Shown piece by piece: positions 27,035-47,602 of a stretch of DNA of 64,000 nt (position 1 is its first letter; each line of letters opens with the position of its first letter). The stretch lies in assembly GCA_000004985.1 (NCBI GenBank), contig GG738855.1. One strand, given 5' to 3'. A program made the position numbers and the translations under genes. The DNA comes from Naegleria gruberi (taxonomy: Eukaryota). The notes under the pieces were generated by a model, which worked only from the letters and a program-made list of their open reading frames with translations, did not search any database and was not told the DNA's origin.

Positions 27035-27044
27035 ATGAGCGCAC
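27035..27044 (+). promoter_or_regulatory. ATGAGCGCAC promoter-proximal GC-rich motif, copy 1
   Basis: Exact 10-mer shared with 47593..47602. It sits 36 bp upstream of the ATG (26999) of the minus-strand small TM gene, inside an otherwise >85% AT spacer. A second GC island follows (TTTGCCGCGGATGGCGACTCCCGTC). Confidence 0.4.
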
Positions 27045-27270
27045 ATCGATTTTATTGGCTTGAATTTTTGTTTGCCGCGGATGGCGACTCCCGTCATTAA
27101 TTATTATTAATTAATAGTTATTTACAATTTATTAAATAATATAATATTAATAACTATGTTGTAAATTCGTTCCAAATTAATAAAATAGTTTTGGATGTTA
27201 CAGTAAATAAAATTCAAAAATTAAAAAGTTTCCATTTTAAAAGTGAAGTTTGTGAAAATATTAGAAAAAA

Positions 27271-27954
27271 ATGTTTGAAATAGTTGTCTTGATTATTATT
27301 GTGCTAATTCTCTCTCTTGTTGCCTCTTATCATTATTACATGAATATTCGATCTGAACAACCCTATCTCAGGAAGGGTTCTGAATCACTCGAATCAAAAC
27401 CAATCAAGATTATTCTACATGGACCTTGTGCCTCTGGAAAATCAACTCATTCAAAAGAACTGTCAACAGCATTAAATATTCCATTGATTGATGCAGATTT
27501 ACTTCGGTTTTATCCTGCTCATGAATTTGAGTGGAAACTTAAAAGTGGCAATGAGTATATTTCTGCCATCGAGAAGGAAATGAAGCAATTTAAGGATAAG
27601 GGTTGGGTTTTTGACGGCAGAGTTTTGAAATTACCATCCATAATTAAAGAAGCAAATGTTTTAATAATCATGGATTATGCACTCATTGTCACTTTTTGGA
27701 GATTGTTTGTGAGGTGTGTCAGTAGATGGATTTACAATACCAAATGTTGTAATGGAAATGTTGAGAAATGGTCTAATCATTTGGGAAAGGACTCTCTGTT
27801 TTTGTATGAATTTAACAGTATGTTAGATGCCAAGAAACGTGACTTGGGAATGAAGAAACATTTCGAGGATAATCCCCATCTTCATGTTTTCAAAGTACTG
27901 TCTCCAAGAGACTTGAAATATTTGTTAAAGAAACTCGACTTTAAAAGTTTGTAA
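27271..27954 (+). CDS. P-loop NTPase/nucleoside(-mono)phosphate-kinase-like protein with N-terminal TM anchor
   Basis: N-terminal TM (MFEIVVLIIIVLILSLVASY) followed by a Walker A motif (IILHGPCASGKSTHSKEL) and a kinase-like fold (LIDADLLRF...). 227 aa. Confidence 0.5.
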   Translation: MFEIVVLIIIVLILSLVASYHYYMNIRSEQPYLRKGSESLESKPIKIILHGPCASGKSTHSKELSTALNIPLIDADLLRFYPAHEFEWKLKSGNEYISAIEKEMKQFKDKGWVFDGRVLKLPSIIKEANVLIIMDYALIVTFWRLFVRCVSRWIYNTKCCNGNVEKWSNHLGKDSLFLYEFNSMLDAKKRDLGMKKHFEDNPHLHVFKVLSPRDLKYLLKKLDFKSL

Positions 27955-28051
27955 ATATTAGATTGAAAGGATTAGTCAACTGCATTCCAAAACATTTCAA
28001 TACATGATTTAATCAGCAAAATGTTATTGATATTTACAATAAGTTAATTTA

Positions 28052-28885
28052 TTAATCTTCTGATTCATCTATCGCATCAATTTCCTGATTTGGTATTATC
28101 GTTATGTTCTGACTATCACCATGATAGTAATAATCTGGTAGTATTACAGTATCGTTATATCTTGGAGTTGAATCCATAACTTTTCTATTATGGAAAAAGT
28201 CCAAAACTACGAACAATGAGTCTGATGATTGAAATCCAAATTGACTCAAATTGCATTCCATATTATCATCATTTATGATCTTTCCTTTGTAAACAAAACG
28301 TTGTTTTTCGTAAGGTATTTGCAACATATCTCTCACTGCAGTTTTTAAGTGATGTAAAGTTAAATTATTAAAATTATATACACGCATGGATTGTCCAGTT
28401 AATGTTCTGATATTAACAAAAGGTGGGGAATTGGAGGAAGTTGATGGTTGGATGGCATTCATAGGTGATGTTATTATTGAAGGATTAAAAAGTGGAGTAT
28501 TAGAAATGAAATTATTAGAACCTGTGTTGTTGTGACAAGTGTAAAATGGGAATGAACACGTTACGGATGATGAAGAAGAACTTGATTGATTACTACTTCC
28601 AATCGATATACAAACTGCATGAACTTGCTTTAATTTCTTACTAGGTTTTGATGAATACAAATCCGTATCATCATCCGATGATGAACAAGATTGATCTTCG
28701 TATGATTGATCATACATCATTTCATCATATTCTTCCATACCAGTTTCTAGATCATCATTTTTTTGTAGGCTTCTTTTTCCTAAAAAGTTTGAAGAGGCTT
28801 TTGTTCGAGAGCCTCTTTGACCAACACCGTTACATGTTGATGTTATTCCGTGATGGCATTCATCGTCAAAGTGGTGTGAAGGCAT
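28052..28885 (-). CDS. Ubiquitin-like (UBL) domain-containing protein
   Basis: The C-terminal segment MRVYNFNNLTLHHLKTAVRDMLQIPYEKQRFVYKGKIINDDNMECNLSQFGFQSSDSLFVVLDF has a beta-grasp/ubiquitin-like pattern. The N-terminal half is S-rich and acidic. ATG at 28883-28885. Confidence 0.55.
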   Translation of the reverse strand: MPSHHFDDECHHGITSTCNGVGQRGSRTKASSNFLGKRSLQKNDDLETGMEEYDEMMYDQSYEDQSCSSSDDDTDLYSSKPSKKLKQVHAVCISIGSSNQSSSSSSSVTCSFPFYTCHNNTGSNNFISNTPLFNPSIITSPMNAIQPSTSSNSPPFVNIRTLTGQSMRVYNFNNLTLHHLKTAVRDMLQIPYEKQRFVYKGKIINDDNMECNLSQFGFQSSDSLFVVLDFFHNRKVMDSTPRYNDTVILPDYYYHGDSQNITIIPNQEIDAIDESED

Positions 28886-29223
28886 TTTTTCTCTCTGTTG
28901 TTTGAAAAAAAAAATTCAAGAATCAGCCAGAAAAAATTGGGCGCCATTCAAAGAGGTTACAAAATTTTATGGGTTTTTGCTTGTCTGGTACTCTCTTCAA
29001 CATAAATTGATTCACCTTTTCTCAGTGGCTTTCAATGAACAATTCAAAAACAAATTATTATATTTAGTAAATTCTTCAATACACCATTTGTGTTAGTTTC
29101 AATATTCTTATGGGGTGAGGTTCATTTTTTTTACTTTCATTGAAAATAATCCAGAGTGAGTCTGATAACAGGAGTTGACTCCTCTAAATCTCCTTTCTTT
29201 TCAAAAATAAAAAGAAGGAAAAA

Positions 29224-30945
29224 ATGACTCTACGTTCCACTTGTCTTCAGATCGGAGTGGTCGCTAGGAAGGTTGCTGACAAATACAACCAGTTCGGACG
29301 GATGATATTTGGTCCCAAGGTTCTGCTTGTGTATTTGTTCATTGTGAATTTATTTATTTATTTTGATAGAGGTGTTGTTTCTGTAGGTTTCAAGTTGATC
29401 TATTTAAATTAAAAAGTGGATGATGATTATGAAAATAATATATAGGGTATTTTACGTGCTTTGGAAGCAAAGTGGGATTTATCACAAACTGAACAAGGAG
29501 CACTCGGATCAGCTTTTATGGTTGGATATATGATTTTTGGACCAATTTTTGCTCAGTTAGCCTCTAAAATTCCAATGAAGGTAATTATCATCACATGAAT
29601 TATTCATCGGAATGACATATATTTCTGTTAAATACATAATAATAATAATAATTGGAAATGACATTCACTTTAAATTACTTGTGGAATATTGAAATAGATT
29701 GTTATTTTTGTCGGATTGGTTATTTGGTCTGTATTAACAATATTGTGTGGATTTACTAGTGTTGTAACATCAAAGACTGGTTTCTACTTGTTGGCTGTTT
29801 GTCGTTGCTTGGTTGGTGTTGGTGAAGCTGCCTATGCTCCTGTTGCACCAACCTTATTGGATGATGTTGCTCCTGCCAAAAGTAGAACAATGTACATGTC
29901 CTTCTTCTATCTTGCCATGCCTGTTGGTGTTGCTATTGGGTATGGTGTAAGTGGTGTTGTAGCTGATTATTTGGATTGGTCACTCGTTTTTATGGGAGAA
30001 GGTATTTTGATTATTCCTCTTGCTTTATTGATCTTGATGGTTCCTCCATCTGATCAATACAGAAAAGATAGAATGGAAAAGGAAGACAGAGAAAGATTAG
30101 TCAATGAAAACAATTCTCTTCTTGAAAATAATGATTCCAATAACCAAATTCCTCAAACTTCATCTGAATCTAACATTGTTACTGAAAGTGATGCAATGAG
30201 TCAATTTGGAGATGTTGAAAAGGACAAGACCTATAATATTTTCCAAGCAATTTACCATTTATTTACAAACTCTGTCTACGTGTATGCTCTTTTGGGTTAT
30301 ACAATGTATACATTTGTGATTGGCGCATTGGCTTTCTGGGGACCAACTCTTGTTTCAAAGGGGCTTCACATTAGAATGTCTATTGCAAGTTTGGCCTTCT
30401 CTGGTATCAGTGTTGTGACTGGTATCGTAGGTTCTATGGTTGGAGGTATAGTTTTGGATAAGATTGGTGGATCTAAGGGAATGGCTGGAAGTGCTAGAGG
30501 ATTAATGCTATGTGCTATTTTCATTTTCCTTGCTATTCCATTTGGTTATGGAGCATTTAGTACATCTAATATTCCACTCTATTTTTCCTTATTGGTTATT
30601 GCTGAATTCTTCATTTTCTGCATTACCAGTCCTGTAAATGTTTCCTTCTTGTCAGTTGTTTCTCCAAACTTGAGAAATTACAGTATGAGTATTCAGATCT
30701 TTGTCATTCACGCTATTGGTGATTTCCCTTCACCTTCTGCTATGGGTGCATTTGCTGATTATTTAGGAGGTAATGCTGGTCTTTCAAAGAGTATCCTATT
30801 CTTGTGGACCGTTCTTGTTTTTAGTGTTGCCTTCTTCTTTGTTGGATTTTTAATTGCTCGATCAAAGAGTAAGATTGAAGAACGTAGTGAAGCTTTTGCT
30901 GACCTCAAGAAGGAAAATTATCAAAGAGCAAAGACGGAGCTGTAA
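29224..30945 (+). CDS. Major-facilitator-superfamily transporter, spinster (Spns)-like. Model: join(29224..29382,29446..29580,29698..30945).
   Basis: The spliced product reads ...VLLVYLFIVNLFIYFDRGVVS|GILRALEAKWDLSQTEQGALGSAFMVGYMIFGPIFAQLASKIPMK|IVIFVGLVIWSVLTILCGFTS...CRCLVGVGEAAYAPVAPTLLDDVAPAKSRTMYMSFFYLAMPVGVAIGYG. This is a close match to the Spinster TM1-TM4 signature (NYMDRftvAGvL ... LvGvGEAsYstiAPtli.D.f....R...lsiFY.aiPvGsglGY). About 12 TM helices. Confidence 0.8.
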
Positions 30946-31015
30946 ATTCAAAATTAATCTCAATTATTCAATTAACCTGCTTGATAACTCAATTTTAAAA
31001 AATCAATTAAAAAAA

Positions 31016-31753
31016 ATGTTAAAAATAATTAAATCATCAACCAGTCCACTTCAAAAATTAAATAGAATCGGAATTGCAAGTCGGAAAGCTGCTTCATTGA
31101 ATTGTTGTGTGGCTTGTTCTTCTTCCCTCATGAGAAATTATGCAACATTTAATTTTAATCAAAATGAAGAAGATGATTATGAAAAACAGCCAGGACAATC
31201 ACCTTTAGCTGCACCATTGGAACAATATAACGTCATGCAATATGATTCGTATGTGTTGAAAATATAATAATAATTATAATAATTAATTACTACATCGCAA
31301 AGTTCTGTGACTTTTATTTCAGGATATGGTCAACGATCTTTCTTTGTTGGAAATACCAGAATTTTCGGAAGTATATTCGCAACAAAGAAACAAGTTTTTG
31401 TTTGGGATATCTCGGATCCAAGTCAAATTACAATTGAAAGTTTAAAATTGGCTGAACATTTAAATCCAACACCTACCTTACTTCTTGTTGGAACTGGTAA
31501 GTCAATTGTTAGATTACCACAGGAAGTACATGAATATTTCAGAAAGAATGGTGTTGTTATTGAGGAAATGAATTCAGTGAGTGCTGTCAGTACCTTCAAT
31601 GTTTTGAATCAAGAAGGAAGAGATGTATGTTGTGCTTGCATTTCACTTGAGCCAGTCAATGTTAAAGATTTGGTTCCAGAAAAATCACCAGTTGTCTTTT
31701 TGGAAATTAGAAATGTTCTTGATAGGAGACCAGGTGGCAGTCCTCTTGGATAA
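31016..31753 (+). CDS. NDUFAF3: NADH dehydrogenase [ubiquinone] complex I assembly factor 3 (NDUFAF3, DUF498/Mth938-like). Model: join(31016..31248,31303..31753).
   Basis: Exon 1 is MLKIIKSSTSPLQKLNRIGIASRK... (presequence-like). A 54-nt intron (GTATGT...AAAG) leads into ...SVTFISGYGQRSFFVGNTRIFGSIFATKKQVFVWDISDPSQITIESLKLAEHLNPTPTLLLVGTGKSIVRLPQEVHEYFRKNGVVIEEMNSVSAVSTFNVLNQEGRDVCCACIS. This parallels the NDUFAF3 core (GYSPRGFSINGNRVFGPCALLP..VVQWNVGS..DITEESFSLFWLLEPRIEIVVVGTGDRTERL...GIAVEVQDTPNACATFNFLCHEGR). Confidence 0.7.
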
Positions 31754-31886
31754 TATTATTTCACAAATATTGAAGAGTAAGATCAATTCCATAAATTATT
31801 CATTTTATTTCAGCTGTATAGATATGGAAAAATTAATAATCGAAACTGTAAACTTCATAAGAAAAAAGTTAGTTTGTTCCTTTTGT

Positions 31887-31986
31887 CAAACCGCCTCAAC
31901 TGACTAATGGTGATGGAAGAAACTTCTCTACAGACCTTAAAAAAAATACCGCGCATTTGATTAAGAGACTTTGAGGACAAACCGCC
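31887..31986 (+). promoter_or_regulatory. Direct repeat of CAAACCGCC (31887-31895 and 31978-31986) in the spacer upstream of the gene starting at 32109
   Basis: Two exact 9-mers, 91 bp apart, at -222 and -131 relative to the ATG at 32109. They form GC-rich islands in AT-rich DNA. A CCGCGCAT element lies between them. Confidence 0.3.
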
Positions 31987-32108
31987 CATTGTGTTTGACT
32001 ACGACATAGTATTATATATTATTCAACCTTTTGTTGTTTGTAGAGTAGAGGATCAATAGGTCCTCTAATTTTTTAAAATACATCATCATCTTTTTAATCA
32101 ACAACATA

Positions 32109-35100
32109 ATGAGAGGAGGAAGGACAGTAGTAACACATAATATATCGGAACCTTTTCCTTCCCCGAGTCCAAGACAAACATCAAGAAGTTTGAACGAGTC
32201 ATCCTCAAACACTAAGGATGTAAGAAAATCAACAGCCTCTTCATCAACACACCATTCAACAATCAAATCATCTATACAATATATCGATGAAGGACCTTCA
32301 TTATACAAGTCAAGGGAAATTGCTGCTCAATCTGGATTGAATGACAGACCTCAGGCCTGGGAATCTGGGCCTGTTGTTGGAGCTGTTCCTCAATCTAATA
32401 ATGAAATTCAAGAAAATCGTGCTGCAATATCATCTCTTCAACAAGTTGAATTTACACCACCTAAAAATGTAATTGTTGTGGACGATTTAAATAAGCAAAC
32501 CAGACTACCCAAATCATCTACCTTTTCTTCCATAGAATCTCTTTCAGTCATAACAAATAATCCTCCAATGAATTCTCCTGCCTCAGTCGGAAATGTAAAT
32601 TCAAATGTTCAGCAACAACCCCACACTCTTATTCTTGATGGAACTACAATCGATTCATCGAAAATTAACCAAAAATCTCCAACCCGAGCATCCAGTCCTT
32701 CTGTGAGAATTCCACAAATCCCTTCCAAGAAACGAGATTCCATATTGAGGAGTAGTAAGCCAAAGAAACCAGACAATATTGAAAATTCTGAACCCCAAGA
32801 AAAAGTTTTGTCACTCATTGATGTTCAAACAGCAAAGGATCTTGTAAATAGTGGTATTGTGGTTAATCCAGAACTTTCCCAAGAAACCCTACAAAAACTT
32901 GATTACTTGTCAGATAAACATTTTATGGCAGGAACAGACATTTCAGTTTTTAAAAAGTCACATCAGCCTCCAGCAATACTAAAACCAAATCAACTTGATG
33001 ACACTTATCTGAGACGAGCCCTAAAATCAGCATTTGAAATTAATAATGATTCGTATTTGGGAGTAATAACAGAGATGGCTGACAAGGCTGCCAGTAATGC
33101 CAATGCTCTTGTCCAAATGATTCCACCTTCTACAATCCCAAAGGAATTTTACATCTTTTCAAATTCACCAATATATGAGGGACTTGTTAAGGAGGGTAAA
33201 TTTGATTTCAATGAGAAGGGACATTACTGGGAGAAGGTTGTTTTTCCATCTGCCAACCCTTCAAAGAGAGTTGAAGTGTACTTACTTGCCAAGGCAATTG
33301 ATTCAATGTTAAAAAAGGCAAGAAAAGAAGACAAAAATATTCATAACAATGAGGAATACTACAAGTCGATTGTTGAAAACATCAACAAATCATTTATTGT
33401 TCACCTGGATAGTTTATTCGAGGTTGCTAGACAGGTTTTTTCAACATGTGTAGAGAGAGGTGTCATCATACAGAGAATCCACATATACTTTAAGGAATTT
33501 TTTGATATTACAAGAACTCTATTACAGGGAGAAAGAAAAAAGTCAACTGAGTTAAAAAAAGTCATAAACCAATACGAGAAGGTAGTAAAAGAGGTTAGTG
33601 ATGAAAAATTGAAAATGAAGCAAGAATTGGAAACGCTGTTAACAAAGAGTGCAACAATAGTGTCTGAAAATGAAGAATTCAAGAAAAAAATCAGTCAAAT
33701 TCCTCAATACGAAGTTGTAATGAATTTAATTCAAAATAAGAAGAAATGGGAAGAGTTTGTTAATGATGGAGGTGAAGATTTGTTTGACGAAGATGGAGTT
33801 GGAGGTGATAAAAAAGGAGTAACACCTAAGAAGAGGATGGCCAAGCAACGAAGTCAAAATGGAGAAGCAGACTCTGTTTCTGGAAATACTGCTAGCCAGT
33901 TAGAAAAAAGTTTTGGAAGAATTATGAAACTTATTTGGACAAACATCAAAGAAACTATTACAAGTACTATTGACTTGAGTGGTTATTTTGAAAATTTAGG
34001 GCATGGACACCAAATTAGAACTAATATAGATTCTGAGCGACTTCAATACATGGACTCTGATGCCCAAATACTTGCTCAAAATACTCTCAATCTGCTCTAT
34101 GATATTAATGGAAGACTTGGAGAAATCAAACGAATTGGTAAAAAGCATCAAGATATGCTTGCTGTCAGACAATTTGCAGATTCAGAAACTCAAACAGATT
34201 TAGATCCCAATAAGAGAATACTAAGAGTACAACTTGTGCCACGTGAAAATTCGGAGAGGAAGATTAAAGTTGTATTTTTTGACTCGAGAGATGACACACA
34301 AATGAGTTTTACAACAAAAGAACAACTTATTAAGAAGGAAAAGGAGGTTGTAAAATTGCAAGATCAAATTTGGAAATTAAAGCAAGAGCTTGAGAATGAA
34401 AGAGCTTACAGTGACAAACTTGCTAATGAAATAAGAGTGAAGAATGAGGTAATTTCTAGGAATGGTCTGGAATCTGAAGCAAAGAAATTGAGAAAGGAAA
34501 GAAGGAAGGAAGAAGAACGAAAGAAGAAAAAGAAGGAAGAAGAGGAACCAGTAGCATCAAACTGGCCAACACCAGCTGTTATTACATCTTCCGAACCTTC
34601 TATCAGACACTCTATTGAGTCAATACCCAAAAGGCTAACTCCCACCAAACCAAATTCTTCCACAAACCAAGCATCACCAAGCCCTCACAAAAAGAAAAAT
34701 ACCAAAGAGCCGAGATCAAGGAAAAAGGAAAACCTCAAATCCACTGAAAAGAAGCCAATAGTTTCTTCAAAGAACTCGTCGAGACCGAATACAAATCATG
34801 CTGACACTCCTCCAGAAAGAACTCTTGAAACAAATGAGCCTGTGAATAGAGTGAAAACTCCTCAAGCAACCCCATCTCGCCATGAAACAGTTGTAAATGA
34901 CAATGTAAAACAAAGAATTGAAAATAACCCAAGCATAGTTGATACAGTGAGTACAAGAGCGGAAACAAGAGAAACCAATCTACATTCTCAGGTTTCTCAT
35001 TCTTCTCTTTCTAGTTATGACGATCACAGACTTGAGGATACACATTCAGGATTTACAACAAGAACAGAAAATAGAGATGATTCTGGGTCACAAGAAAACT

Positions 35101-36398: not shown

Positions 36399-36589
36399 AT
36401 TATTGAACGAGTTTTATTGTAAAGAGTGACTTGTTATTGTGTTTTTGCTATACATATCATTAAATTAGCTTTCTAAGGTTCAGAAGCAATGAACATTAAA
36501 CTGTATGCATCAACATTGTAAAGTTGTTGTTGATTGACGTTTCATTAAAAACTTTTCACCTGTCCTTGGGTGGAAAAAAGAATAAAAAA

Positions 36590-37337: not shown

Positions 37338-37351
37338 AACCACCTAAAATT

Positions 37352-38713: not shown

Positions 38714-38870
38714 TTTTTTTTATCTTCAAGTTTTTGATTGTTTTTTTGCTTGTTGTGAATTGTGTGGAGCTTCAACAAGTTGACTTTGATGGATTCTAAG
38801 GAACCAATTCTATTGTTGTTTAATAAACATTGTTTTTCAAATTTTAGCATAAATTTATTGTTCAAAATTT

Positions 38871-41678
38871 CTAATGAGAGAAGAGATGGTTGAGAATAAT
38901 TTCTGCAGAGGTAATGCAAGTGGAACCGAGAATAATCTTCTTACCAAAGTATGGTGAGTGTTGCCCTTTTTCTCTGAGGTTGTTATTGATCATTTGTTTA
39001 ATGTCGGTAATTTCTCCAAAGGTAATGCCACCAACAATGAAAAGTATCATAGTGGAAGATTCATTCTTAATTGGCTTCGATTTGGATTGGAACATGAATC
39101 CGAATGTGTTGGAAATAGTGCTCAAAAGTGAGGCATTATGTACAAGATCTGGGCATGGTTCAGTTTCACCTAATACATAGGCCAATTGTTTGCACAGAGA
39201 CCTGAAAGGTGTTTCAGTATTTCCCAAGTTACCACTCTCATTTTCGAATATAAATACATGATCATTAGCAGCCAATTTGTTGAGTATTTGGAAGTATTGA
39301 CGTTGTCTTTTGACTGCATTCAAACATTTGAAAATTATGGATAAATCTTCCTCTACAAGATTTTGGATATTTTCCTTAATGTCGAATTTCTTTTTTGGTT
39401 TGTCGTCATCAAAATCTTCATTCCAATTGTCCCAATCTGCCTCCTCTTCCTCCTCCTCTTCAACAGGTGATGCCTCCTCTTCCTCTGTTGGATTTTGCAA
39501 TTGATCCAATGTTTCATCAGAGAGAATACTTTCAATAAATGATATGCATGAGGATTGTTTGTAATTATCGACAATATGTTTAGCGAGCAATTTTTTGAGG
39601 TCTCTTTCCATTTTGAAGGAACAATCAGGTGTTACCACAGAATATATCATCACGACTAAACGTAATACATCCTGTAATGAGAATTTGGAACCATCCTTCT
39701 TTAAAATATTAATAATATAGGTCAATAACTCATCTTGGTTATTGTCGCACTCGTAGAGAATCAATTTTTCAGCACTAGCTAACTCTGCCCTCTTTGTATT
39801 ACTTTGTGTGAGTTCTAAGGCATGAATAATTGTGGATAAAAATTGTATAACGTCACAATTATCTGACAGTGTTGATAATGCCAGGTCTTTCAATAAATTT
39901 TTCAAACTTTGTGTGGTTTTTTCGAAGGAGAGCTCACCTTTCTTTGTGGTCAAGTTTTGTAACTTGTCTAAAACTACTTTCATCTCTCCGATAGATTCCG
40001 AATTCTTCTTTTCAATTATTGAGTTCATAAGGTTGATAATCTTTTCATTTCCATGGTGGAGTAGACCAGACATGTTTACTAATTTACGAAATTTCATTAA
40101 TAAGAATTCAAAAGCACTTACATTTTCTTAATTCAGATGAAGATGAGTTTAAAGTCATTCCATCAAATCTTACATTTGTGGATAGACCTGTTTTTCTTTC
40201 TGTAGTATTCAGAACCTTATCTAATATACTTTCCGAATGTACCATTGGAGATACTAAATCAAGTGATCTATCAACAAGAACCAAAGTACAAGAATTAGTA
40301 GTACGGAAAGATTCCTCCCTAATCAAATTTTGAAGATCTTGAGCAATGAGATTGGAAGATTGACCCAGAGAGTATACGTCAACACTCATTCTCATATTCT
40401 TCAATAAATCTCTCAAGGTTGCTGCCAGCATTTTGAATTGAAGTTGGAAGGGTGTTGGCAATTCATCAAAGGCCATTAAAACCTCTGATTTCTTTTCTTT
40501 CTGAGGGCTTCCAATAGTAAATCCAGATAGTAAGCTGGATGATTTGATTGGAGACGATACTGCTGGAGACCTTTGTGCAAGACTTAAAATTGGAAATACA
40601 CCATGACATGTTGGAGTAACAAAAATGTTTGGCATGATTGCTGAAATGTTGAATGAGTAATGATTGACCTCTACATGACTTTGAATTGGTTGGAATTGTT
40701 AGTATTTTCAATTACTTACATTGAGTTGTTAATTTCATTTTCAAATTTTTTAGAGGAATTTTCCTTTTTGTGAAGGTTATATTGAGTTTCAAATATTATC
40801 AGTCTACATTTTTCAATGAGATCTGAATAGGTTAAATATTCTTTGAAATAGCCGACAGAAGGAACATAATTCTCATCCAATTCAATACCTTCCAAAACCT
40901 TAGACTGATAATACTCACAAAATCCCTCACTAAATGGGCAGTAGAAATAAATATGGGTGAATTTGTACTTTTCCACACTCTTTCTAACAGCTTGCTCCAA
41001 TGTTTTTGTCAAATGGCAAACAAAAAAGACTGCTTTTTGTACATTAGGTGTGTCTTGCATTTGAGGGGTAATCATATCTGATTGAACAATGAAATGTTCA
41101 ATTTTTTCAGAGCTCTCTGGTGCTGTTGACTTTTTAGTATTTACAGTTGGTGCTTCATCCTCTTCGTCACTGTAGAATTTTTCAAATTCATCATCTTCTT
41201 CCTCGCTATCAATTGATTCCTTAATATTTAGATTATTTGTTGAATTTTCTGTATTGTCATTATTCGATACATAATTGTTCCAACTCAAATTCATTTCTTT
41301 CAAATCCTTAAGTTTATCAATTGATGGCCAATCTTGATCCGATGTTAGATCCAATATTGTCAAAACTCCAAGCTTTAACAAATGATTAGATGTGAGTGAT
41401 TGATCCTCTCCGAACTGATTCCACGAAAAGCATTCAGCACTCACACTGTCCATAAACACCACAGCATTATTCAATTGTTTTGCCAATTTTTCATATTCTT
41501 GATTAGCATCTTCATCAATTAATTCGGAATTATCTTGATAATCAGAGAATGGATCCACTACTTTGTGAGGACTCTTCCTACGATCGGAGGCTTGTTGATT
41601 TGATATTGTTGATGGTGGTAGAAGTTTTGAAGCCTTCCCGACAGCCTCTACAAGCAAGGCTTGTTGTTGAATGCTCAT
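38871..41678 (-). CDS. Divergent Sec1/Munc18-family-like protein (SCFD2-like?). Model: complement(join(38871..40078,40122..40678,40720..41678)).
   Basis: Three ORFs are joined by 41- and 43-nt introns with phase-consistent GTAAGT donors. The middle exon has LVLVDRSLDLVSPMVHSESILDKVL, resembling the Sec1 family (LLILDRsfDlvSPllHeltfQam). The C-terminal exon has ILFIVGGITFGEI, resembling Sec1 (vifviGGvTysE). There is an acidic insert (EEEEASPVEEEEEEEADWDNW). Confidence 0.5.
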
Positions 41679-41886
41679 TTTTTTAAGTATTTGATGACGT
41701 ATCACATTTGCATTGTTCTTTTCCCTTTCATTTTCTTGTCTTAATTATTAATGTATTTTAATACTTTCGATATCAATTCTACCTTTTACTAACAAAATTA
41801 TGTAACTACTGTAATGTTATTTGGGAGAATGTTATTTGAATGATTAGAAAAAATAATAAAAATAAATTGGAAAAAATATTAAAATA

Positions 41887-42575
41887 ATGCCAAAGTCTAC
41901 CAGCACGTTATCAAAGTGGGGCAAACAACTTACCCAAAGACTTGAAAGATGGTGGGGCGTTGATCCTGAATTTAGACACTATCTCCCAGAACATCAAGAT
42001 TCCTATCGTACACCAGCTCCATCGTAAGTTTTTTAAGTTGCAGAGCAGAATAATAACATTCCGTGCCATTATTTCATCATCTGTTGTCATCGTATGAATG
42101 AAAATTAATATTTAATCACATCATCAATGAATATTATTATTTAAATATTATTATAACAACAACAATATAATTGGAAATATCTAGTTCTCAACCTGACGTT
42201 AACATCCCACGTCAAGCTTTCATCAAGGATTTCCACATTAAATATTATCAACAAGATTTCCGTAGAGGACAAGGTTGGAATCCAGAATATCTTGATACCA
42301 TCGTATACAGACAAGAAATTATAGAGGATGCTCAAAAGGGCAAGTACAAGTTAATGCCTGGACAACCTGTTGGTCCTTTCTATGGTATGGGTATGGAAAG
42401 TAAGATTTCATACGCTTTTGATGAAAGAGAAAACAAGCAAGTTTATACATACAGCGTTGATCGTAACTTGTTCAAGCCAGACACTGTTCTTTCTCCTGAA
42501 GAAATTGAAAGACAACTCGAACATGACAAGCTTTACTCCAATGCCAAGAAGGTTGACTTTGTTGGAAAGAAATAA
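41887..42575 (+). CDS. Small mitochondrial-type protein, possibly complex I subunit NDUFB10 (PDSW)-like. Model: join(41887..42023,42184..42575).
   Basis: Exon 1 is MPKSTSTLSKWGKQLTQRLERWWGVDPEFRHYLPEHQDSYRTPAP. A 160-nt intron leads to SSQPDVNIPRQAFIKDFHIKYYQQDFRRGQGW... The pattern W..D..Y/RPE.P..YRTP..QP..NI...AF..D loosely parallels the NDUFB10 N-terminus ([31 protein letters not shown]...RYYYYHRQYRR). Weak assignment. Confidence 0.4.
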
Positions 42576-42667
42576 GTGGATAATTAAATAGTTTTTTAAG
42601 GAATTCCACACTAGAATGGTGTTTTTTAACTTTTGGTGAATAAAGATTTAAATTTCAAAATTTGAGT

Positions 42668-43216
42668 TTATTTCTTGTCAACTTGCATATTACGAGTAGC
42701 TCTTGGTAGAGTGACAGTCATTCCTTCCATATCTTTGGAAACAATGACTTGACATCCTAAACGAGAATTGTGAGCCAATCCATAAGCCAAATCCAACATA
42801 TCTTCTTCCTCTTCTTCAGGTTCTGGCATCTTTTCAAAAAATTCATCTTGAATGTAAACATGACAAGTACTGCAAGCAAGAGAAGCTTCACAAGCACCTT
42901 CCAAATCAATATCATTAGCATGGGCAACAGCCAAAATATTTTCTCCGATTGGAGCCTTCACACTCTTTGATAAATTATTCTTTGGATCCACAAAACTAAT
43001 ATTGACAGTTCTATTAAATGTTGTCATCACCAATTAAAAATTTGATTATTGTGTGAATTGTTTCGGAATTAACTTCAAGAAAACATACTCGGCATTTGGA
43101 TTCTTATATCCAATACTTAATTGTTGCAAACTAGAAGAGAAAAATACACGAGAGTTGTTGGCAAATTGGATATTTCTCAAAACAGGATTTGTGGATTTCA
43201 ATACGTAACGGAACAT
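42668..43216 (-). CDS. FDX2: Mitochondrial [2Fe-2S] ferredoxin, adrenodoxin-type (FDX2/Yah1-like), Fe-S cluster assembly. Main exon 42668..43033 is solid; the 5' exon(s) are ambiguous.
   Basis: Main exon: ...[113 protein letters not shown]. This is near-identical in pattern to human FDX2 ([48 protein letters not shown]...SRLGCQI). The upstream exon ends ...GYKNPNAE|. A GTATGT...AATAG intron, 50-75 nt long, separates it from the main exon. There are two alternative 5' models (see findings). Confidence 0.8.
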
Positions 43217-43302
43217 TTTTTTTGAATTGGTTTTGGGTGTTGATGTCTTGGTTCTCTTTTACTTCTTACTTGCTCTTGGTTGAACATTTTCAAGTCCTCT
43301 TA

Positions 43303-43312
43303 TTGCGCTCAT
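43303..43312 (-). promoter_or_regulatory. ATGAGCGCAA motif, copy 3, in the ferredoxin 5' region (9/10 identical)
   Basis: Plus strand TTGCGCTCAT at 43303-43312. It lies about 90 bp upstream of the ferredoxin ATG at 43216. Alternatively its ATG is the start codon of the two-intron ferredoxin model. Confidence 0.35.
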
Positions 43313-43407
43313 TTCAGAGGAGTATGAAAGAATGCTTGATAATATGTTGAGCAATGTCCGAATCCAATCAAAAATTGAGCGTCGTTTTGTTGAGCTGTAA
43401 TGTTGTT

Positions 43408-45141
43408 TTATTTCATGTCTTTTTCAACTTGATCGAGAATTGCTTGTTCTTCCTTTTCTTGTTGTTTCTTCTTTAATTCAATTTCTTCGTCTTCGTATTG
43501 TTTCTTCATCTTTAAAAGTTCAATCTTCTTTTCGAGACGAGCAATTGATTCATTAATGTATTGGAGAACTTCATGATGTTGTTCAACTTGTTGCATTTCT
43601 TTCAGTTTCTCTAACATTAAGAATTCTACGCATCCCTTAACACATGCAATTCTTACAATTGGAAGAGGATGGTTTTTGAATTTTTCAAAAATTTCAGATG
43701 GCCACTTGTCATACTGCAATACAGACAAGTGAGCAATTGGAATTGAAGGATTGAATAAACTATTCAAATCTTCTTGATCCAAAGCACCTGACTTGATTAA
43801 TTCTTCGTCTTCCTTAACAATTCTCATCAATTCAGCAGCAATAGATTCAGCATTGGTATTCTTTTGTCCGAACAGAGCAAGGCAAACATCAATTGGCATA
43901 TCTGATGGGAAGTGGCAATCAAATACTTTGTTCATTCTGTCTGTGCATGGTTTGGAAAGTCTTTGATTGGTTGGATAGTGAATTCTGGCAAAGATTGGAA
44001 TTAGTCTATCGGCAGAATTGCTACCAAAATCAACGTGTAAATCATAACGAGCTTCAATAATAATCAAGGATCTGGAAAAGACTGTGTGGAACATGCTTCT
44101 TTGGATACTCTCACTGGCTAAAAATCTATTGCCACTACCTAAAACAATAGGAGTATTGAAAACAAATGGACTATTCATAAATGTTTGTTCCAAGTCTTCA
44201 AGGGCAGATACATTACCCAAAAAGAGAGAAACAGTATTTGGGTATTCCTGTAAAACTCTTTCCTTAAATTCCAACTTGTTTGGATCCAAAGTCTTATTGA
44301 TATAGTCCAAGAATTTGGCATGTAAATCATTATATTCCTTTTCAGTTGTCTTGGCTGTTGGATCCATTTCTTTCAATTTCTCCACATTAAAACCAATTTT
44401 AGCAAGTAAATCTTCTTGATAATCCAAATGTCTAGAAACATTACTACTTTCAATTTCCATAATTTCTTCAAAGAGTCTATTCAAAGAGTCAATGGAAGGT
44501 TTCAATGGGATCCAAAACATTGGAGGAACAAATGGTGCTATTTGATAGAGAATTTTTGGTTGACTTTCCTTACCAGACTTGTCTGGAACTTCAATATACA
44601 ACAAACTTGGAGATGATGGAGTATAGTGGACAGGCAAATCTCTGTACAATGGGAAGTAGTAAGCTTCACCAACACAAATATAATCCTTTGACTTTCCTCT
44701 TGGAACATAGCAAAGTTTACTCAAATCAGCATCGGAAATCATATCTGGACGAAGGTGGAACATTGTCTTGTCGGCAGAGACAGCTTGTCCTTTCAATCCT
44801 TCAACAACATCAGGGAATGTTTTAATGAATGGTTTATCATAAAATTTGACATCGAAATTTCCCAACTTTTTCTCGACTTGGTCGTGTGGAAAGGCTGTTT
44901 TAAACCATTCTGGTATCAAATCAGAAACATTTGTAATTTTACCTTCCTCCGATTTTACTATTCTACTAGTGGTAAAATTTCTAGAAGAACAATATTCAAT
45001 GTTACTATTATTACTACTATTAAATTTTGAATTAATTATAGATGATAGGGGTGTTGGAGTTTTATTTCCGAAGAGATTAGTGCTTGCTCTCAAATTTCTT
45101 CTACCATTATTGATGAGGAGACGAGAGGTGTTTTTAATCAT
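43408..45141 (-). CDS. Hypothetical protein with presequence-like N-terminus (possibly mitochondrial), 577 aa from the first ATG
   Basis: The long ORF is 43408..45300. The first ATG gives MIKNTSRLLINNGRRNLRASTNLFGNK... (basic, hydroxylated, no acidic residues). The protein is globular with a coiled-coil, K/E-rich C-terminus. No family recognised. Confidence 0.5.
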   Translation of the reverse strand: MIKNTSRLLINNGRRNLRASTNLFGNKTPTPLSSIINSKFNSSNNSNIEYCSSRNFTTSRIVKSEEGKITNVSDLIPEWFKTAFPHDQVEKKLGNFDVKFYDKPFIKTFPDVVEGLKGQAVSADKTMFHLRPDMISDADLSKLCYVPRGKSKDYICVGEAYYFPLYRDLPVHYTPSSPSLLYIEVPDKSGKESQPKILYQIAPFVPPMFWIPLKPSIDSLNRLFEEIMEIESSNVSRHLDYQEDLLAKIGFNVEKLKEMDPTAKTTEKEYNDLHAKFLDYINKTLDPNKLEFKERVLQEYPNTVSLFLGNVSALEDLEQTFMNSPFVFNTPIVLGSGNRFLASESIQRSMFHTVFSRSLIIIEARYDLHVDFGSNSADRLIPIFARIHYPTNQRLSKPCTDRMNKVFDCHFPSDMPIDVCLALFGQKNTNAESIAAELMRIVKEDEELIKSGALDQEDLNSLFNPSIPIAHLSVLQYDKWPSEIFEKFKNHPLPIVRIACVKGCVEFLMLEKLKEMQQVEQHHEVLQYINESIARLEKKIELLKMKKQYEDEEIELKKKQQEKEEQAILDQVEKDMK

Positions 45142-45217
45142 TTTTTTTAATTGATTGAAAATTATTAATATCCAGCACAAAATGCAAGGTAATATATTAA
45201 GGCATATGTAAAGTTTA

Positions 45218-46525
45218 TTAGAAACCTCTAAAGGTAGTCTTGTCAAGCACTTGATGTAAAGTTCCGCGACCATTGTTGGTTTCAATTTTGTTTCCACCAT
45301 CTAAAACTAAATTGGCTGTTTGGTTGAATAAATTGTAAATGACAGAATCCAATTCTTTTCCTGTTTGTTTAAAATCAGGACCAGCATTGACTTCCAATAA
45401 ATAAACTTGAAGATCTTCATCAACAAGGAAATCCAAACCAAACAATTCAAAACAATGTGGAAGTGGCATAAATGCCAATTCTCCTGAAACAGCATCAAAC
45501 ATTTCACCTGTTACATCCTTGACTTGTTGGAAAATATGTTCCAATTGAGATGTTGAGATTGTTGAATCTTCATTTGCAAGATTCCAGAATAATTTAACAG
45601 ATTCACTTTCTTTGAAATCAGATTCTTTCACTTGAACACATGTATTGGTAATATGTGAGAAGGTATCTGAAATATTTTCCTTTTTGAATGGTCTCAAAGC
45701 AAAAAGAGCCAAAATTTGATCGTACACATAAACCTTAAGAGCACCAACAGCCAAGACATAAACTCTCATGTGGAATTTTCTTCCACCACAGAGCAAAAGT
45801 GGTCTATCAACATATTTCTGAATGACCCACTCTCTCAATTGTCTAAGATCGAGAACGTTGCTTTCTTCATCTTCATCATCATTATCTTCTTGTTGTTCAA
45901 AGTTAGTTGTGAAGTAGTTTTGCAATTGTTCAAGAGAATTGAAAATGAAAATTTCAGCACCCTTGTTGGTGAGAGATGGTTTTAAAATCCATGTAGCAAT
46001 TCCATTTCTATCACCTTCTTGTTCAATTTTTTCATTATTTTCCAATGATTGAACTACTTCATAAATATCATACAAGCTCTCGTCAAAATATTCGACATCA
46101 TCCAATTCATAAATATGTGTCTCTGGGATGGCCTTCTTGAGGTGGGTTTTTTCATTCTTACTCAACTTTTTGGTGACATATCTATTCAAAATACTACCAA
46201 ATTGAGCTTTTCTAATAAGACCTTTTCTAATACAATAATAATTGCAACGGAGTGGATTTTCTATTTGAGACATGACAGTATCCCAAGGAACGTTTTCATA
46301 TTCATCCCATTGAATTTCAATATTCTTTTCCTTGATGAATTTAGCAACACTTTCTTCATAATTAAATTCCTCTTCTGGGTTTGTACTTTTATGATAATTG
46401 ACAACATCGTCACGTGTATAGATATTGTAGAGATTGTGATAAGTACTTTCCGGATCTCTCAAAACACGTAACAATAAATCCCGAGAATAGGCACAGTCAA
46501 GATTAACAAGAAGATTTTTAACCAT
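45218..46525 (-). CDS. Tubulin-tyrosine-ligase family protein (TTL/TTLL-like, ATP-grasp)
   Basis: TTL-domain hallmarks are present: WILKPSLTNKGAEIFIF, RKFHMRVYVLAVGALKVYVY, ELFGLDFLVDEDLQVYLLEVNAGPDF. First ATG at 46523-46525 (the track start at 46537 is TTG). Confidence 0.75.
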   Translation of the reverse strand: MVKNLLVNLDCAYSRDLLLRVLRDPESTYHNLYNIYTRDDVVNYHKSTNPEEEFNYEESVAKFIKEKNIEIQWDEYENVPWDTVMSQIENPLRCNYYCIRKGLIRKAQFGSILNRYVTKKLSKNEKTHLKKAIPETHIYELDDVEYFDESLYDIYEVVQSLENNEKIEQEGDRNGIATWILKPSLTNKGAEIFIFNSLEQLQNYFTTNFEQQEDNDDEDEESNVLDLRQLREWVIQKYVDRPLLLCGGRKFHMRVYVLAVGALKVYVYDQILALFALRPFKKENISDTFSHITNTCVQVKESDFKESESVKLFWNLANEDSTISTSQLEHIFQQVKDVTGEMFDAVSGELAFMPLPHCFELFGLDFLVDEDLQVYLLEVNAGPDFKQTGKELDSVIYNLFNQTANLVLDGGNKIETNNGRGTLHQVLDKTTFRGF

Positions 46526-46646
46526 TTTTTTGTTCAAATTTTTAATGAATTTAAAATTAATTAGATTTTGTTTTTAACACAATCATGAGTTGTCAGGGGG
46601 AAACACAAATCAAAGAGTGGTGAAGTTAATTGGGTGGGTGAGAATT

Positions 46647-47555
46647 CTACTTGTTATGTTCACAATCTGCGCAAGGTTCATTGGCAAAATGTCTGTGTTC
46701 TTTCAAATCTAAGAGATGAAGTTTGTTATCTACAAGTTGAAGAGTTCGTTCAATATAGTTCAATTCTGCAATATTGATACGAACATTATCCAAATCATCC
46801 TTTTTGAATGCTTCATCAATTGATTTTACAATGAGCCTCTTTTTTTCATTGAAATCCATATGATAATCTGTCAATTGATCTCTATCTGAATCAATTTCAT
46901 TAATATATTCATTCACTTCCATAATTTCCATTAAAAATTCAGGAGGTAATTGAACATCATTGACTGATTTGTAATTACAAGGTCCCAGTAAATCAATTTC
47001 TTTAACTTTCAATAAATATTCTGCCCTAGATTTAGTATTTTTAAGAGTTTGATAGGCTGTGTTAACAATAGCCGATTGCATTATTGAAATTTTCTTTTCC
47101 ACTTCTGATTTCATTGCAAATTTATCAGGGTGCAATACTCGTTGTAATTCCTTGAATTTTTCATGTAATACTTTAGGGTTGATTGAAAATTCCTTTGGCA
47201 TATCCATCAATGTAAAATAATCTATGGAGATGTCCTCGCCAGATGTTGATATTACCTTTGAGTTGTTATTACATGATGGTGGTTGTATTTTGTTACAGTG
47301 AGCACAAAACAAGTCATTACAAGACAATTCTTCGGAGCAATTCCAACATGGATGATGAAGGCTATTTGATGATAATGGTTGGGTTGATCTTGGGCATTCC
47401 TTGTCTGGAATTTTGGAACAGGTTGACATTCTTCTCAATAAACTATTATTTGAAGATGATGGGCTCAAATTTTGGAAGAGACATACGCCACTCTTGTTGA
47501 GTGTGGACAATGTACTTGTTGTTCTGTTGAGAATGATTCTTGGCAATCGGTGCAT
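46647..47555 (-). CDS. HSCB: Iron-sulfur cluster co-chaperone HscB/Jac1 (J-type), mitochondrial. It has the N-terminal tetracysteine zinc-binding module.
   Basis: CWNC...C..C..CAHC cysteine module, as in human HSC20. J-domain (DYFTLMDMPKEFSINPKVLHEKFKELQRVLHPDKF). HscB C-terminal helical bundle. Presequence-like N-terminus (MHRLPRIILNRTTSTLSTLNK). ATG verified at 47553-47555. Confidence 0.8.
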   Translation of the reverse strand: MHRLPRIILNRTTSTLSTLNKSGVCLFQNLSPSSSNNSLLRRMSTCSKIPDKECPRSTQPLSSNSLHHPCWNCSEELSCNDLFCAHCNKIQPPSCNNNSKVISTSGEDISIDYFTLMDMPKEFSINPKVLHEKFKELQRVLHPDKFAMKSEVEKKISIMQSAIVNTAYQTLKNTKSRAEYLLKVKEIDLLGPCNYKSVNDVQLPPEFLMEIMEVNEYINEIDSDRDQLTDYHMDFNEKKRLIVKSIDEAFKKDDLDNVRINIAELNYIERTLQLVDNKLHLLDLKEHRHFANEPCADCEHNK

Positions 47556-47592
47556 TTTTTTAATATTAAATTATTATTATCATTTGTCTGTT

Positions 47593-47602
47593 ATGAGCGC
47601 AC
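47593..47602 (+). promoter_or_regulatory. ATGAGCGCAC motif, copy 2 (38 bp upstream of the HscB ATG)
   Basis: Identical 10-mer to copy 1. It has the same orientation and the same distance (36-38 bp) relative to a minus-strand gene start. Confidence 0.4.

What the first reader, a model, noticed from the sequence alone, without database searches (positions are those of the whole stretch)
27035..47602. A recurrent GC-rich 9-10-mer, ATGAGCGCA(C), sits immediately upstream of mitochondrial/Fe-S genes
The exact 10-mer ATGAGCGCAC occurs twice (27035 and 47593). Each is 36-38 bp upstream, in the same relative orientation, of a minus-strand gene start: the small TM protein at 26999 and the Fe-S co-chaperone HscB at 47555. 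A 9/10 copy (ATGAGCGCAa) lies in the 5' region of the mitochondrial ferredoxin (43303-43312), where its ATG is a candidate start codon. A related TGAGCGCC lies 27 bp upstream of the tail-anchored protein gene (7207-7216). In a roughly 68% AT window with only about 12% non-coding DNA, an 8-mer such as TGAGCGCA is expected about 0.4 times by chance. Three of the four exact TGAGCGCA occurrences are in promoter-proximal spacers. The fourth is coding, at about 675-685 (minus strand). This looks like a shared core-promoter or TF site, possibly co-regulating nuclear genes of the mitochondrial ISC machinery (FDX2 + HscB).
Basis: seen in the sequence. Interest (0 to 1): 0.55.

Follow-up and report, generated by a model that had tools for sequence, protein, structure and literature searches.

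The report
Candidate promoter motif, Naegleria mitochondrial genes
A rare 9-base word (TGCGCTCAT) lies just upstream of three nuclear genes for mitochondrial proteins in the amoeba Naegleria gruberi, and is probably, but not provably from this window, a binding site for a transcription regulator.

Summary
The window is Naegleria gruberi nuclear DNA. The coordinates, spacings and 8-mer count in the finding are correct.

Counts alone are weak. After correcting for all words tested, about 29% of shuffled intergenic sets give a comparable GC-rich 9-mer triple.

Three further results favour a real cis-element:
- Two copies sit at -45 and -47 from the ATG in the same orientation. They are the only position-matched word among 136 promoter pairs.
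- All three downstream genes (HscB, ferredoxin, a 111-aa membrane protein) are in the published N. gruberi mitochondrial proteome. Only 5 of about 30 window genes are (p about 0.002).
- In N. lovaniensis the orthologues of HscB and the 111-aa gene share a different 9-mer, GCTGCAATT, at -66 and -65 (shuffle p about 0.001).

Against it:
- The N. gruberi word is absent from all nine orthologous promoters examined.
- There is no surrounding set of near-matches in promoters.
- The ferredoxin copy is inverted and lies further upstream.
- Two other mitochondrial genes in the window lack it.

Corrections to the finding: the "related" TGAGCGCC is an E2F-type TTTGGCGC site, and the ferredoxin ATG is not a start codon.

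Verdict: a plausible promoter-proximal transcription-factor site (about 0.55). The specific Fe-S regulon reading is unproven. The N. gruberi genome could not be fetched for the decisive count.

The parts
27035..27044 (-). Motif copy 1. Read in the orientation of the 111-aa gene it is GTGCGCTCAT, at -45..-36 from the ATG at 26999. It lies in a 271-nt divergent spacer that also holds a CCAAT box and an E2F-like TTTGCCGC site (27071-27078).
   Evidence: The neighbouring bases ATCGATGTGCG and an upstream CCATCCGCG block are shared with an environmental Naegleria-like orthologous promoter (L007). The CTCAT half is not shared.
47593..47602 (-). Motif copy 2. Read in the orientation of HscB it is GTGCGCTCAT, at -47..-38 from the ATG at 47555. 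It lies in a 111-nt spacer, 64-73 nt past the stop of the upstream 2108-aa gene. That gene's AATAAA lies 17-22 nt past its stop.
   Evidence: Poly(A) rules for N. gruberi (AAUAAA, cleavage 15-20 nt downstream, median 3' UTR 39 nt) come from PMC11529991.
43303..43312 (-). Motif copy 3 (9 of 10 bases). It reads ATGAGCGCAA in the sense orientation of the ferredoxin gene, at -96..-87 from the ATG at 43216. This is inverted relative to copies 1 and 2. Its ATG opens only a 17-codon ORF.
   Evidence: N. lovaniensis has ATTGCGCAAG at about -85, sharing GCGCAATA in inverted orientation.
26664..26999 (-). Gene for a 111-aa protein specific to Heterolobosea, with one predicted membrane helix (XP_002680103.1). 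[quoted passage not shown]
   Evidence: Supplementary Data 2, Sheet 1, of PMC8134430 records 6 unique peptides and 43% coverage, with the signal enriched in the densest, mitochondria-rich fraction.
46647..47555 (-). Gene for the mitochondrial Fe-S co-chaperone HscB/Jac1 (XP_002680110.1).
   Evidence: Pfam HSCB_C 1.5e-15. 100% identical to the N. gruberi protein. 71% identical to the N. lovaniensis orthologue. Present in the mitochondrial proteome table.
42668..43216 (-). Gene for the mitochondrial [2Fe-2S] ferredoxin. It has two exons (43216-43089 and 43010-42668) and a 78-nt intron. The public 119-aa model (XP_002680107.1) lacks exon 1.
   Evidence: Present in the mitochondrial proteome table.

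Best explanation
TGCGCTCAT (extended to GTGCGCTCAT in two copies) is most likely a binding site for a sequence-specific transcription factor. It sits in the very short proximal promoters of a small set of nuclear genes for mitochondrial proteins in N. gruberi: HscB, the mitochondrial ferredoxin and an uncharacterised 111-aa membrane protein.

Shown:
- The three exact copies.
- Their placement in non-transcribed spacer, upstream of A-rich leaders.
- The matched position and orientation of two copies.
- The mitochondrial localisation of all three products.
- A parallel position-matched word in the same gene pair in N. lovaniensis.

Inferred:
- That a protein binds the word.
- That it sits about 10-30 nt upstream of the transcription start. 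This follows because sense-strand ATGs at -27 in the HscB leader and at -38 in the 111-aa leader argue that transcription starts downstream of them.
- That it couples expression of these genes.
- That the word has turned over between species while the coupling has been kept.
For: 1. Rarity. ATGAGCGCA is seen 3 times in 12.6 kb of intergenic DNA against 0.015-0.024 expected. It is the best non-low-complexity 9-mer there.

2. Position.
- Among 136 pairs of promoters with an A-rich start context, HscB and the 111-aa gene are the only pair sharing a GC-rich 8-mer or longer at a matched distance (+-3) and orientation.
- The per-pair shuffle probability of a 10-mer match is 4.3e-4.

3. Location. All three copies lie beyond the predicted poly(A) sites of the upstream genes and within 100 nt of a start codon.

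4. Function.
- All three downstream products are in the 946-protein putative mitochondrial proteome.
- Only 5 of about 30-34 window genes were found in the stored part of that table.
- The hypergeometric p is about 0.002-0.009.
- For the 111-aa protein this information is independent of the discovery.

5. Replication.
- In 62 kb of N. lovaniensis loci, GCTGCAATT occurs exactly twice.
- Those copies lie at -66 and -65, in sense orientation, upstream of the orthologues of the same two genes.
- The shuffle p is 0.001 for that pre-specified pair, or about 0.006 after allowing for the six pairs examined.

6. The GTGCG half recurs in 3 of 9 orthologous promoters against 1/34 to 3/103 controls, p = 0.006-0.024.

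7. GCGC-containing words as a class are concentrated in intergenic DNA: 10 of 19, where 19% would be expected. This fits the idea that such words are regulatory sites in this CpG-depleted genome.
Against: - Family-wise, a GC-rich 9-mer with three intergenic copies arises in 29% of shuffles. Window-wide, the 8-mer ranks only 44th-118th among over-represented 8-mers.
- There is no excess of one-mismatch copies.
- The word is not conserved. The best match in 9 orthologous promoters from N. lovaniensis, Willaertia magna and three environmental contigs has 2-3 mismatches, the same as controls.
- In the closest relative (L007) only the GTGCG half is kept, as part of a different conserved block, ATCGATGTGCG.
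- W. magna shows no position-matched word.
- The ferredoxin copy is inverted and about 50 nt further upstream.
- bS16m and COQ9, which are also mitochondrial, lack the word.
- Proteomics under copper limitation move HscB and the 111-aa protein in opposite directions and leave ferredoxin unchanged.
- In N. fowleri the iron response of Fe-S assembly proteins is reported as mostly not transcriptional.
- The positional and functional tests were partly framed after seeing the data.
Confidence: 0.55

Rival explanations
1. Chance recurrence. A rare GC-rich word happens to fall three times in AT-rich spacers, and the positional and functional coincidences were selected after the fact.
For: - 29% of shuffled intergenic sets give a comparable triple, and repeated GC-rich 10-mers are expected about 1.8 times per shuffle.
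- There is no excess of near-matches.
- The word is not conserved in 9 orthologous promoters.
- The family-wise probability of a position-matched 10-mer somewhere among 136-595 promoter pairs is 0.06-0.25.
- A metagenome scan for the word at this spacing returned only chance-like hits, so it gave no support.
Against: Chance would have to explain all of the following together:
- The matched position and orientation of two copies.
- The third copy falling in the 191-nt spacer of the only other Fe-S assembly gene in the window. About 3e-4 is expected from the rates.
- All three genes being mitochondrial (p about 0.002).
- An independent position-matched word for the same gene pair in N. lovaniensis (p about 0.001-0.006).
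Confidence: 0.3
2. The narrower reading of the first reader: an Fe-S-specific regulon site, possibly iron-responsive, that co-regulates the mitochondrial ISC (iron-sulfur cluster assembly) machinery, here ferredoxin plus HscB.
For: - Both ISC genes in the window carry the 9-mer.
- They lie only 3.4 kb apart.
- ISC proteins (IscS, IscU) rise on iron starvation in N. fowleri (PMC7326272).
Against: - Only two ISC genes could be examined.
- The best-matched pair is HscB and the 111-aa protein of unknown function, not HscB and ferredoxin.
- The N. lovaniensis ferredoxin promoter lacks the N. lovaniensis word.
- The N. fowleri study reports that most iron-responsive proteins are not regulated at transcript level.
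- HscB and ferredoxin are on different contigs in N. lovaniensis and W. magna.
Confidence: 0.15
3. A core-promoter or initiator-type element that fixes the transcription start, rather than a regulator's site. The TCA inside GCGCTCAT would then act like the TCA+1 initiators of other protists.
For: - Two copies have the same orientation and nearly the same distance from the ATG.
- CGCTCA is enriched in intergenic DNA (6 of 9, p = 0.003), and 5 of those 6 copies are in sense orientation upstream of a gene.
Against: - Only 3 of about 30 promoters have it.
- The ferredoxin copy is inverted and lies at -96.
- If transcription started at this TCA in the 111-aa promoter, the leader would begin with an upstream ATG (CTCATG).
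- No transcription start data are available.
Confidence: 0.1
4. A by-product of composition. Promoters in this CpG-depleted genome keep CpG-rich words such as E2F-type and other GCGC sites, and ATGAGCGCA is just one of that class with no specific reader.
For: - CpG observed/expected is 0.35 in coding and 0.47 in intergenic DNA.
- GCGC is 10 of 19 intergenic and CGCG is 4 of 6.
- TTTSSCGC sites are 3 of 3 in promoters.
Against: This does not explain identity over 9-10 bases, the matched positions or the shared mitochondrial function. The dinucleotide-preserving shuffles already allow for CpG content.
Confidence: 0.05

Closest known systems
NRF-1 sites (YGCGCAYGCGCR) in animal nuclear genes for mitochondrial proteins
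   Same: A short GC-rich word with a GCGC core. It lies close to the start of nuclear genes whose products work in mitochondria, and it can be used in either orientation.
   Different: The Naegleria word is not the NRF-1 palindrome; it shares only TGCGC. No NRF-1 relative was looked for. The resemblance is recalled from memory and is a lead only.
E2F/DP sites (TTTSSCGC)
   Same: GCGC-containing, promoter-proximal words in the same window. All three consensus matches lie in promoters.
   Different: The three ATGAGCGCA copies do not fit TTTSSCGC on either strand. The E2F-type sites sit by different genes, apart from one further upstream in the 111-aa promoter.
Metal response element, MTF-1 core TGCRCNC
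   Same: TGCGCTC fits the core exactly in all three copies. The pattern is absent from 103 control promoters. The genes concerned handle a metal cofactor.
   Different: The core is a degenerate 7-mer recalled from memory. MTF-1 is a metazoan factor and its presence in Naegleria was not tested. Copper-limitation proteomics give no coherent response.
C/EBP-type bZIP palindrome (ATTGCGCAAT)
   Same: The N. gruberi ferredoxin copy reads ATTGCGCTCAT on the other strand. N. lovaniensis has ATTGCGCAAG at the equivalent place.
   Different: Only one half-site is kept in N. gruberi. Copies 1 and 2 have GTGCGC rather than TTGCGC. No factor was identified.
Regulons whose cis-word is replaced between species while the gene set is kept (for example yeast ribosomal-protein promoters)
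   Same: The same gene pair (HscB and the 111-aa gene) shares a position-locked word in N. gruberi (GTGCGCTCAT) and a different one in N. lovaniensis (GCTGCAATT).
   Different: Only two genes in two species have been seen, and W. magna shows no such pair. No expression data are available.

Membership tests
E2F/DP binding site | Match to TTTSSCGC on either strand | tested here: not met
One search gives three matches in the window: 7212-7219, 27071-27078 and 58250-58257. None overlaps the three ATGAGCGCA copies.
NRF-1 site | Palindromic GCGCAYGCGC | tested here: not met
   The three copies read [G/T]TGCGCTCAT and have no second GCGC half-site.
Metal response element (MTF-1) | Core TGCRCNC | tested here: met
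   TGCGCTC is present in all three copies. The pattern occurs in 4/12 target promoters against 0/103 controls. It is a low-information core, and the consensus was taken from memory.
Metal response element (MTF-1) | An MTF-1-type factor in the genome and metal-responsive expression of the genes | tested here: inconclusive
In the copper-limitation proteomics, HscB was seen only in the control for the BCS comparison, the 111-aa protein rose 1.5-fold with neocuproine, and ferredoxin was unchanged.
Initiator / core-promoter element | Fixed orientation and fixed distance to the transcription start | tested here: inconclusive
   Two copies match in orientation and distance to the ATG (-45 and -47), while the third is inverted at -96. 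Transcription starts are not mapped.
Transcription-factor site of a conserved regulon | The same word upstream of orthologous genes in related species | tested here: not met
   The best match in 9 orthologous promoters has 2-3 mismatches, as in controls. Only the GTGCG half recurs.
Transcription-factor site of a conserved regulon | Genome-wide enrichment in promoters and in a functional gene set | not testable with these tools
   N. gruberi contigs are not on record in the retrievable collections. Within the window, 3/3 motif genes against 5 of about 30 genes are mitochondrial.
Dispersed repeat / mobile element fragment | Similarity extending beyond the word, or many copies | tested here: not met
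   No repeat family includes the sites. The flanks of the three copies are unrelated.

The most novel reading that the evidence does not exclude
HscB, ferredoxin and the 111-aa protein form a small, fast-evolving mitochondrial regulon. In it the cis-word has been replaced between N. gruberi (GTGCGCTCAT) and N. lovaniensis (GCTGCAATT) while its position was kept, which implies that the factor and its sites evolved together. The Heterolobosea-specific 111-aa membrane protein would then be an unrecognised partner of the mitochondrial Fe-S cluster machinery.
Probability: 0.12. Interest if true: 0.65.

Novelty: new member of a known kind. Interest (0 to 1): 0.4.

Why it matters
No cis-regulatory word was found described for Naegleria in the paper library searched.

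If the word is real, it would:
- give a first handle on how this free-living relative of the brain-eating amoeba coordinates nuclear genes for mitochondrial proteins;
- point to a function for a lineage-specific mitochondrial membrane protein that travels with HscB at the promoter level in two species.

The claim can be tested cheaply from public genomes. If the word is not real, nothing else depends on it.

Tried and rejected
1. Fetching more N. gruberi DNA. Exact-protein look-ups for HscB failed twice, so the genome-wide count was impossible.

2. Scan of metagenome contigs for relatives of the 111-aa protein. 105 pattern hits were found and none was confirmed.

3. Scan of metagenome contigs for GTGCGCTCATN{25,35}AAAAAATG.
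- At least 120 hits were returned.
- They were mostly bacterial or had no ORF at the ATG.
- None looked like Naegleria, so the scan was uninformative.

4. Rfam, tRNA and repeat searches. Nothing overlaps the sites.

5. Global alignment of orthologous promoters. They are too diverged to align. Local shared-word analysis was used instead.

6. Start-codon reading of the ferredoxin copy. Rejected.

7. 3'-UTR element of the upstream genes. Rejected, because copy 1 is in a divergent spacer, and copies 2 and 3 lie beyond the predicted poly(A) sites.

8. Function of the 111-aa protein.
- No Pfam, NCBIfam or PDB match.
- The AlphaFold model has pLDDT 56.
- No fold search was run for that reason.

9. 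Proteomic co-regulation under copper limitation. Not coherent.

10. De novo word enrichment across 12 target promoters against 50-103 controls.
- It gave GTGCGAA (3/9 against 0/103) and GYTGCAA (4/12 against 2/103).
- These were found after the fact among thousands of words.
- They are recorded as leads only.
Full report
**Source and gene map**

The window is nuclear DNA of Naegleria gruberi. The HscB ORF at 46647-47555 (-) is 100% identical to an NCBI N. gruberi protein on a 613-kb contig. Its nearest relatives are from N. lovaniensis (71%) and Willaertia magna (51%). The window has 32-36% GC and is very compact. About 80% lies in ATG-started ORFs of at least 80 aa, and most start codons follow a run of A.

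**The observation**

- ATGAGCGCAC is at 27035 and 47593 (+). ATGAGCGCAA is at 43303-43312 (-).
- TGAGCGCA occurs four times against 0.30 expected, and the fourth copy is coding, inside a HECT-domain ORF.
- In gene orientation the word is GTGCGCTCAT, at -45..-36 of a 111-aa ORF (ATG 26999) and at -47..-38 of HscB (ATG 47555).

Two details need correction.
- The ferredoxin copy is not at a start codon. Its ATG opens 17 codons and then meets TAA. The gene starts at 43216 behind AAAAAAAA and has a 78-nt GTATGT...AG intron. Its exon-1 end (IGYKNPNAE) aligns with N. lovaniensis and with an environmental relative, both of which have the intron at the same place. The copy is therefore at -96..-87 and inverted relative to the other two.
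- The 'related' TGAGCGCC reads ATTTGGCGCTCA on the other strand, which is a consensus E2F-type site. All three TTTSSCGC matches in the window are in promoters.

**Statistics from counts alone**

- In the 12.6 kb outside long ORFs, ATGAGCGCA is the strongest non-low-complexity 9-mer: 3 seen against 0.015-0.024 expected.
- Once every word is allowed to compete, 29% of dinucleotide-preserving shuffles of the intergenic segments produce some 9-mer with GC>=5 seen three times.
- Repeated GC-rich 10-mers are expected about 1.8 times per shuffle.
- Window-wide, the 8-mer ranks 44th to 118th.
- One-mismatch copies show no excess.

Counts alone therefore do not establish anything.

**What the word is not**

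Nothing from Rfam, no tRNA and no repeat family overlaps the sites, and the flanks of the copies are unrelated. N. gruberi uses AAUAAA, with cleavage 15-20 nt downstream and a median 3' UTR of 39 nt (PMC11529991).
- The gene upstream of HscB has AATAAA 17-22 nt past its stop, and the motif lies 64-73 nt past that stop.
- The gene upstream of ferredoxin has AATAAA overlapping its stop codon, and the motif lies about 100 nt further on.
- Copy 1 is in a divergent spacer.

All three copies are therefore in promoter DNA and not in the 3' UTRs of neighbouring genes. Sense-strand ATGs lie between the word and the start codon, at -27 in HscB and at -38 in the 111-aa gene. This suggests that transcription starts downstream of the word (inference).

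**Position**

Among 17 N. gruberi promoters with an A-rich start context (136 pairs), HscB and the 111-aa gene are the only pair sharing an 8-mer or longer with GC>=4 at a matched distance (+-3) and orientation. The shuffle probability of a 10-mer match for one pair is 4.3e-4, which becomes 0.06-0.25 family-wise.

**Function**

HscB and ferredoxin are the two Fe-S assembly genes in the window. The 111-aa protein has homologues only in Heterolobosea. It has no Pfam, NCBIfam or PDB match and folds with low confidence as one membrane helix plus a disordered tail.

All three proteins (XP_002680103.1, XP_002680107.1, XP_002680110.1) are listed in Sheet 1 of Supplementary Data 2 of Horvathova et al. 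2021. That sheet is the 946-protein putative mitochondrial proteome, drawn from 4198 detected proteins. The 111-aa protein has 6 unique peptides and 43% coverage, and its signal rises towards the mitochondria-richest fraction (PMC8134430).

Of the other window genes, only the mitochondrial ribosomal protein bS16 and COQ9 were found there. Ten others were not, but only about 602 of the 946 rows are held. Three of three motif genes against five of about 30-34 genes gives a hypergeometric p of about 0.002-0.009. bS16m and COQ9 lack the word, so it is not a general mark of mitochondrial genes.

**Other species**

N. gruberi contigs could not be fetched. I retrieved the orthologous loci of all three genes from N. 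lovaniensis and W. magna, and three environmental contigs.

- The word itself is not conserved. The best match in nine orthologous promoters has 2-3 mismatches out of 9, exactly like control promoters.
- In the closest relative (L007; 74% identical 111-aa protein) the promoter shares CCATCCGCG and ATCGATGTGCG with N. gruberi in the same order. Where N. gruberi has GTGCGCTCATG, L007 has GTGCGAAAACATG.
- The GTGCG half recurs in 3 of 9 orthologous promoters against 1/34-3/103 controls (p = 0.006-0.024).
- The N. lovaniensis ferredoxin promoter has ATTGCGCAAG at about -85, sharing GCGCAATA with N. gruberi in inverted orientation.

The most informative result is in N. lovaniensis. There the orthologues of HscB and the 111-aa gene share a different 9-mer, GCTGCAATT, at -66 and -65 in sense orientation.
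- These are the only two copies in 62 kb of N. lovaniensis sequence.
- This is again the only position-matched pair among 136 promoter pairs.
- For this pre-specified pair the shuffle probability is 0.001, or about 0.006 allowing for the six gene pairs I looked at.
- W. magna shows no matched word, even after correcting its HscB start to L002 9806.

**Expression data**

- In copper-limitation proteomics of N. gruberi, HscB is listed as present only in the control for the BCS treatment. The 111-aa protein is 1.5-fold up with neocuproine, and ferredoxin is unchanged. The lists run to hundreds of proteins, so this says little beyond showing that all three are expressed (PMC9035749).
- In N. fowleri, iron starvation raises IscS and IscU protein. 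The authors consider most such changes not to be transcriptional (PMC7326272).

**Weighing**

Chance is a live explanation for the counts. It must also absorb the matched position, the third copy falling in the short spacer of the only other Fe-S gene, the mitochondrial location of all three products, and an independent positional coincidence for the same gene pair in a second species.

Against a real site stand the lack of conservation of the word, the lack of degenerate copies, the odd geometry of the ferredoxin copy and the small sample.

My estimates are:
- about 0.55 that the word is a real promoter-proximal regulator site for a subset of mitochondrial genes;
- about 0.3 that it is chance;

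**Resemblances**

These come from memory and are not tests.
- The word contains TGCGC, as in NRF-1 and C/EBP sites.
- TGCGCTC fits the metazoan metal-response core TGCRCNC.

None of these families can be claimed. The NRF-1 and E2F consensus tests fail, and the metal-response core is too short to carry weight.

No Naegleria promoter word was found described in the library searched. If real, this is a new example of an ordinary kind of element. The decisive test is a genome-wide count against the published mitochondrial proteome.

Noticed in passing
window 7212-7219 (-), 27071-27078 (+), 58250-58257 (+): All three matches to the E2F consensus TTTSSCGC lie in promoters, against 0.75 expected window-wide. 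They sit upstream of the 290-aa gene (6312-7184), in the divergent spacer between the 111-aa and 227-aa genes, and in the divergent RasGEF/TRAPPC10 spacer.
   Followed up: partly
L001 9935-9943 and L006 9936-9944 (N. lovaniensis): GCTGCAATT occurs only twice in 62 kb of N. lovaniensis loci. The copies lie at -66 and -65 upstream of the orthologues of HscB and the 111-aa gene, mirroring the N. gruberi pattern with a different word.
   Followed up: yes
window 42668-43216 (-): The public N. gruberi ferredoxin model (119 aa) starts inside exon 2. The gene has an upstream exon that encodes a presequence-like N-terminus, and a 78-nt intron whose position is conserved in N. lovaniensis and in contig L004.
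   Followed up: yes
window 42668-47555: Ferredoxin and HscB lie 3.4 kb apart on the same strand, separated by a 630-aa gene and a tubulin-tyrosine-ligase gene. This recalls the bacterial hscB-hscA-fdx order. They are on different contigs in N. lovaniensis and W. magna. Only the HscB-TTL adjacency is kept in N. lovaniensis.
   Followed up: partly
window 43407-43412 (-): AATAAA overlaps the TAA stop of the 630-aa gene. This is a 'dual-use' stop codon and poly(A) signal of the kind reported for N. gruberi.
   Followed up: partly
whole window: CpG is strongly depleted: observed/expected is 0.35 in ORFs and 0.47 outside them. GCGC (10 of 19) and CGCG (4 of 6) words are concentrated in the 19% of the window that is intergenic.
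   Followed up: partly
window 27045-27090 vs L007 500-545: The promoter of the 111-aa gene shares two blocks, CCATCCGCG and ATCGATGTGCG, in the same order with an environmental Naegleria-like contig. These look like conserved footprints, and they only half overlap the motif.
   Followed up: partly
L003 9945, L007 540, L009 107: GTGCGAA(A) occurs 30-60 nt upstream of the start in three orthologous promoters: N. lovaniensis ferredoxin and two environmental 111-aa genes. It occurs in none of 103 control promoters. This was found after the fact.
   Followed up: partly
window 54274-55837 (-): Two more genes for mitochondrial proteins sit side by side: ribosomal protein bS16m, and COQ9 (split into two ORFs by an intron). 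Only 18 nt separate the COQ9 start from the stop of the upstream RasGEF gene, so its promoter must lie inside that gene.
   Followed up: no
window 47617-47640: The HscB spacer also holds AATGCACAA, which is shared with the N. lovaniensis HscB promoter (at -76 against -36). AATGCAC also occurs in two ferredoxin promoters of other taxa.
   Followed up: no
window, several spacers: GTAAGTAAGG recurs three times outside long ORFs. These are probably 5' splice sites of unannotated introns, so part of the 'intergenic' DNA used as background is really intron or short exon.
   Followed up: no
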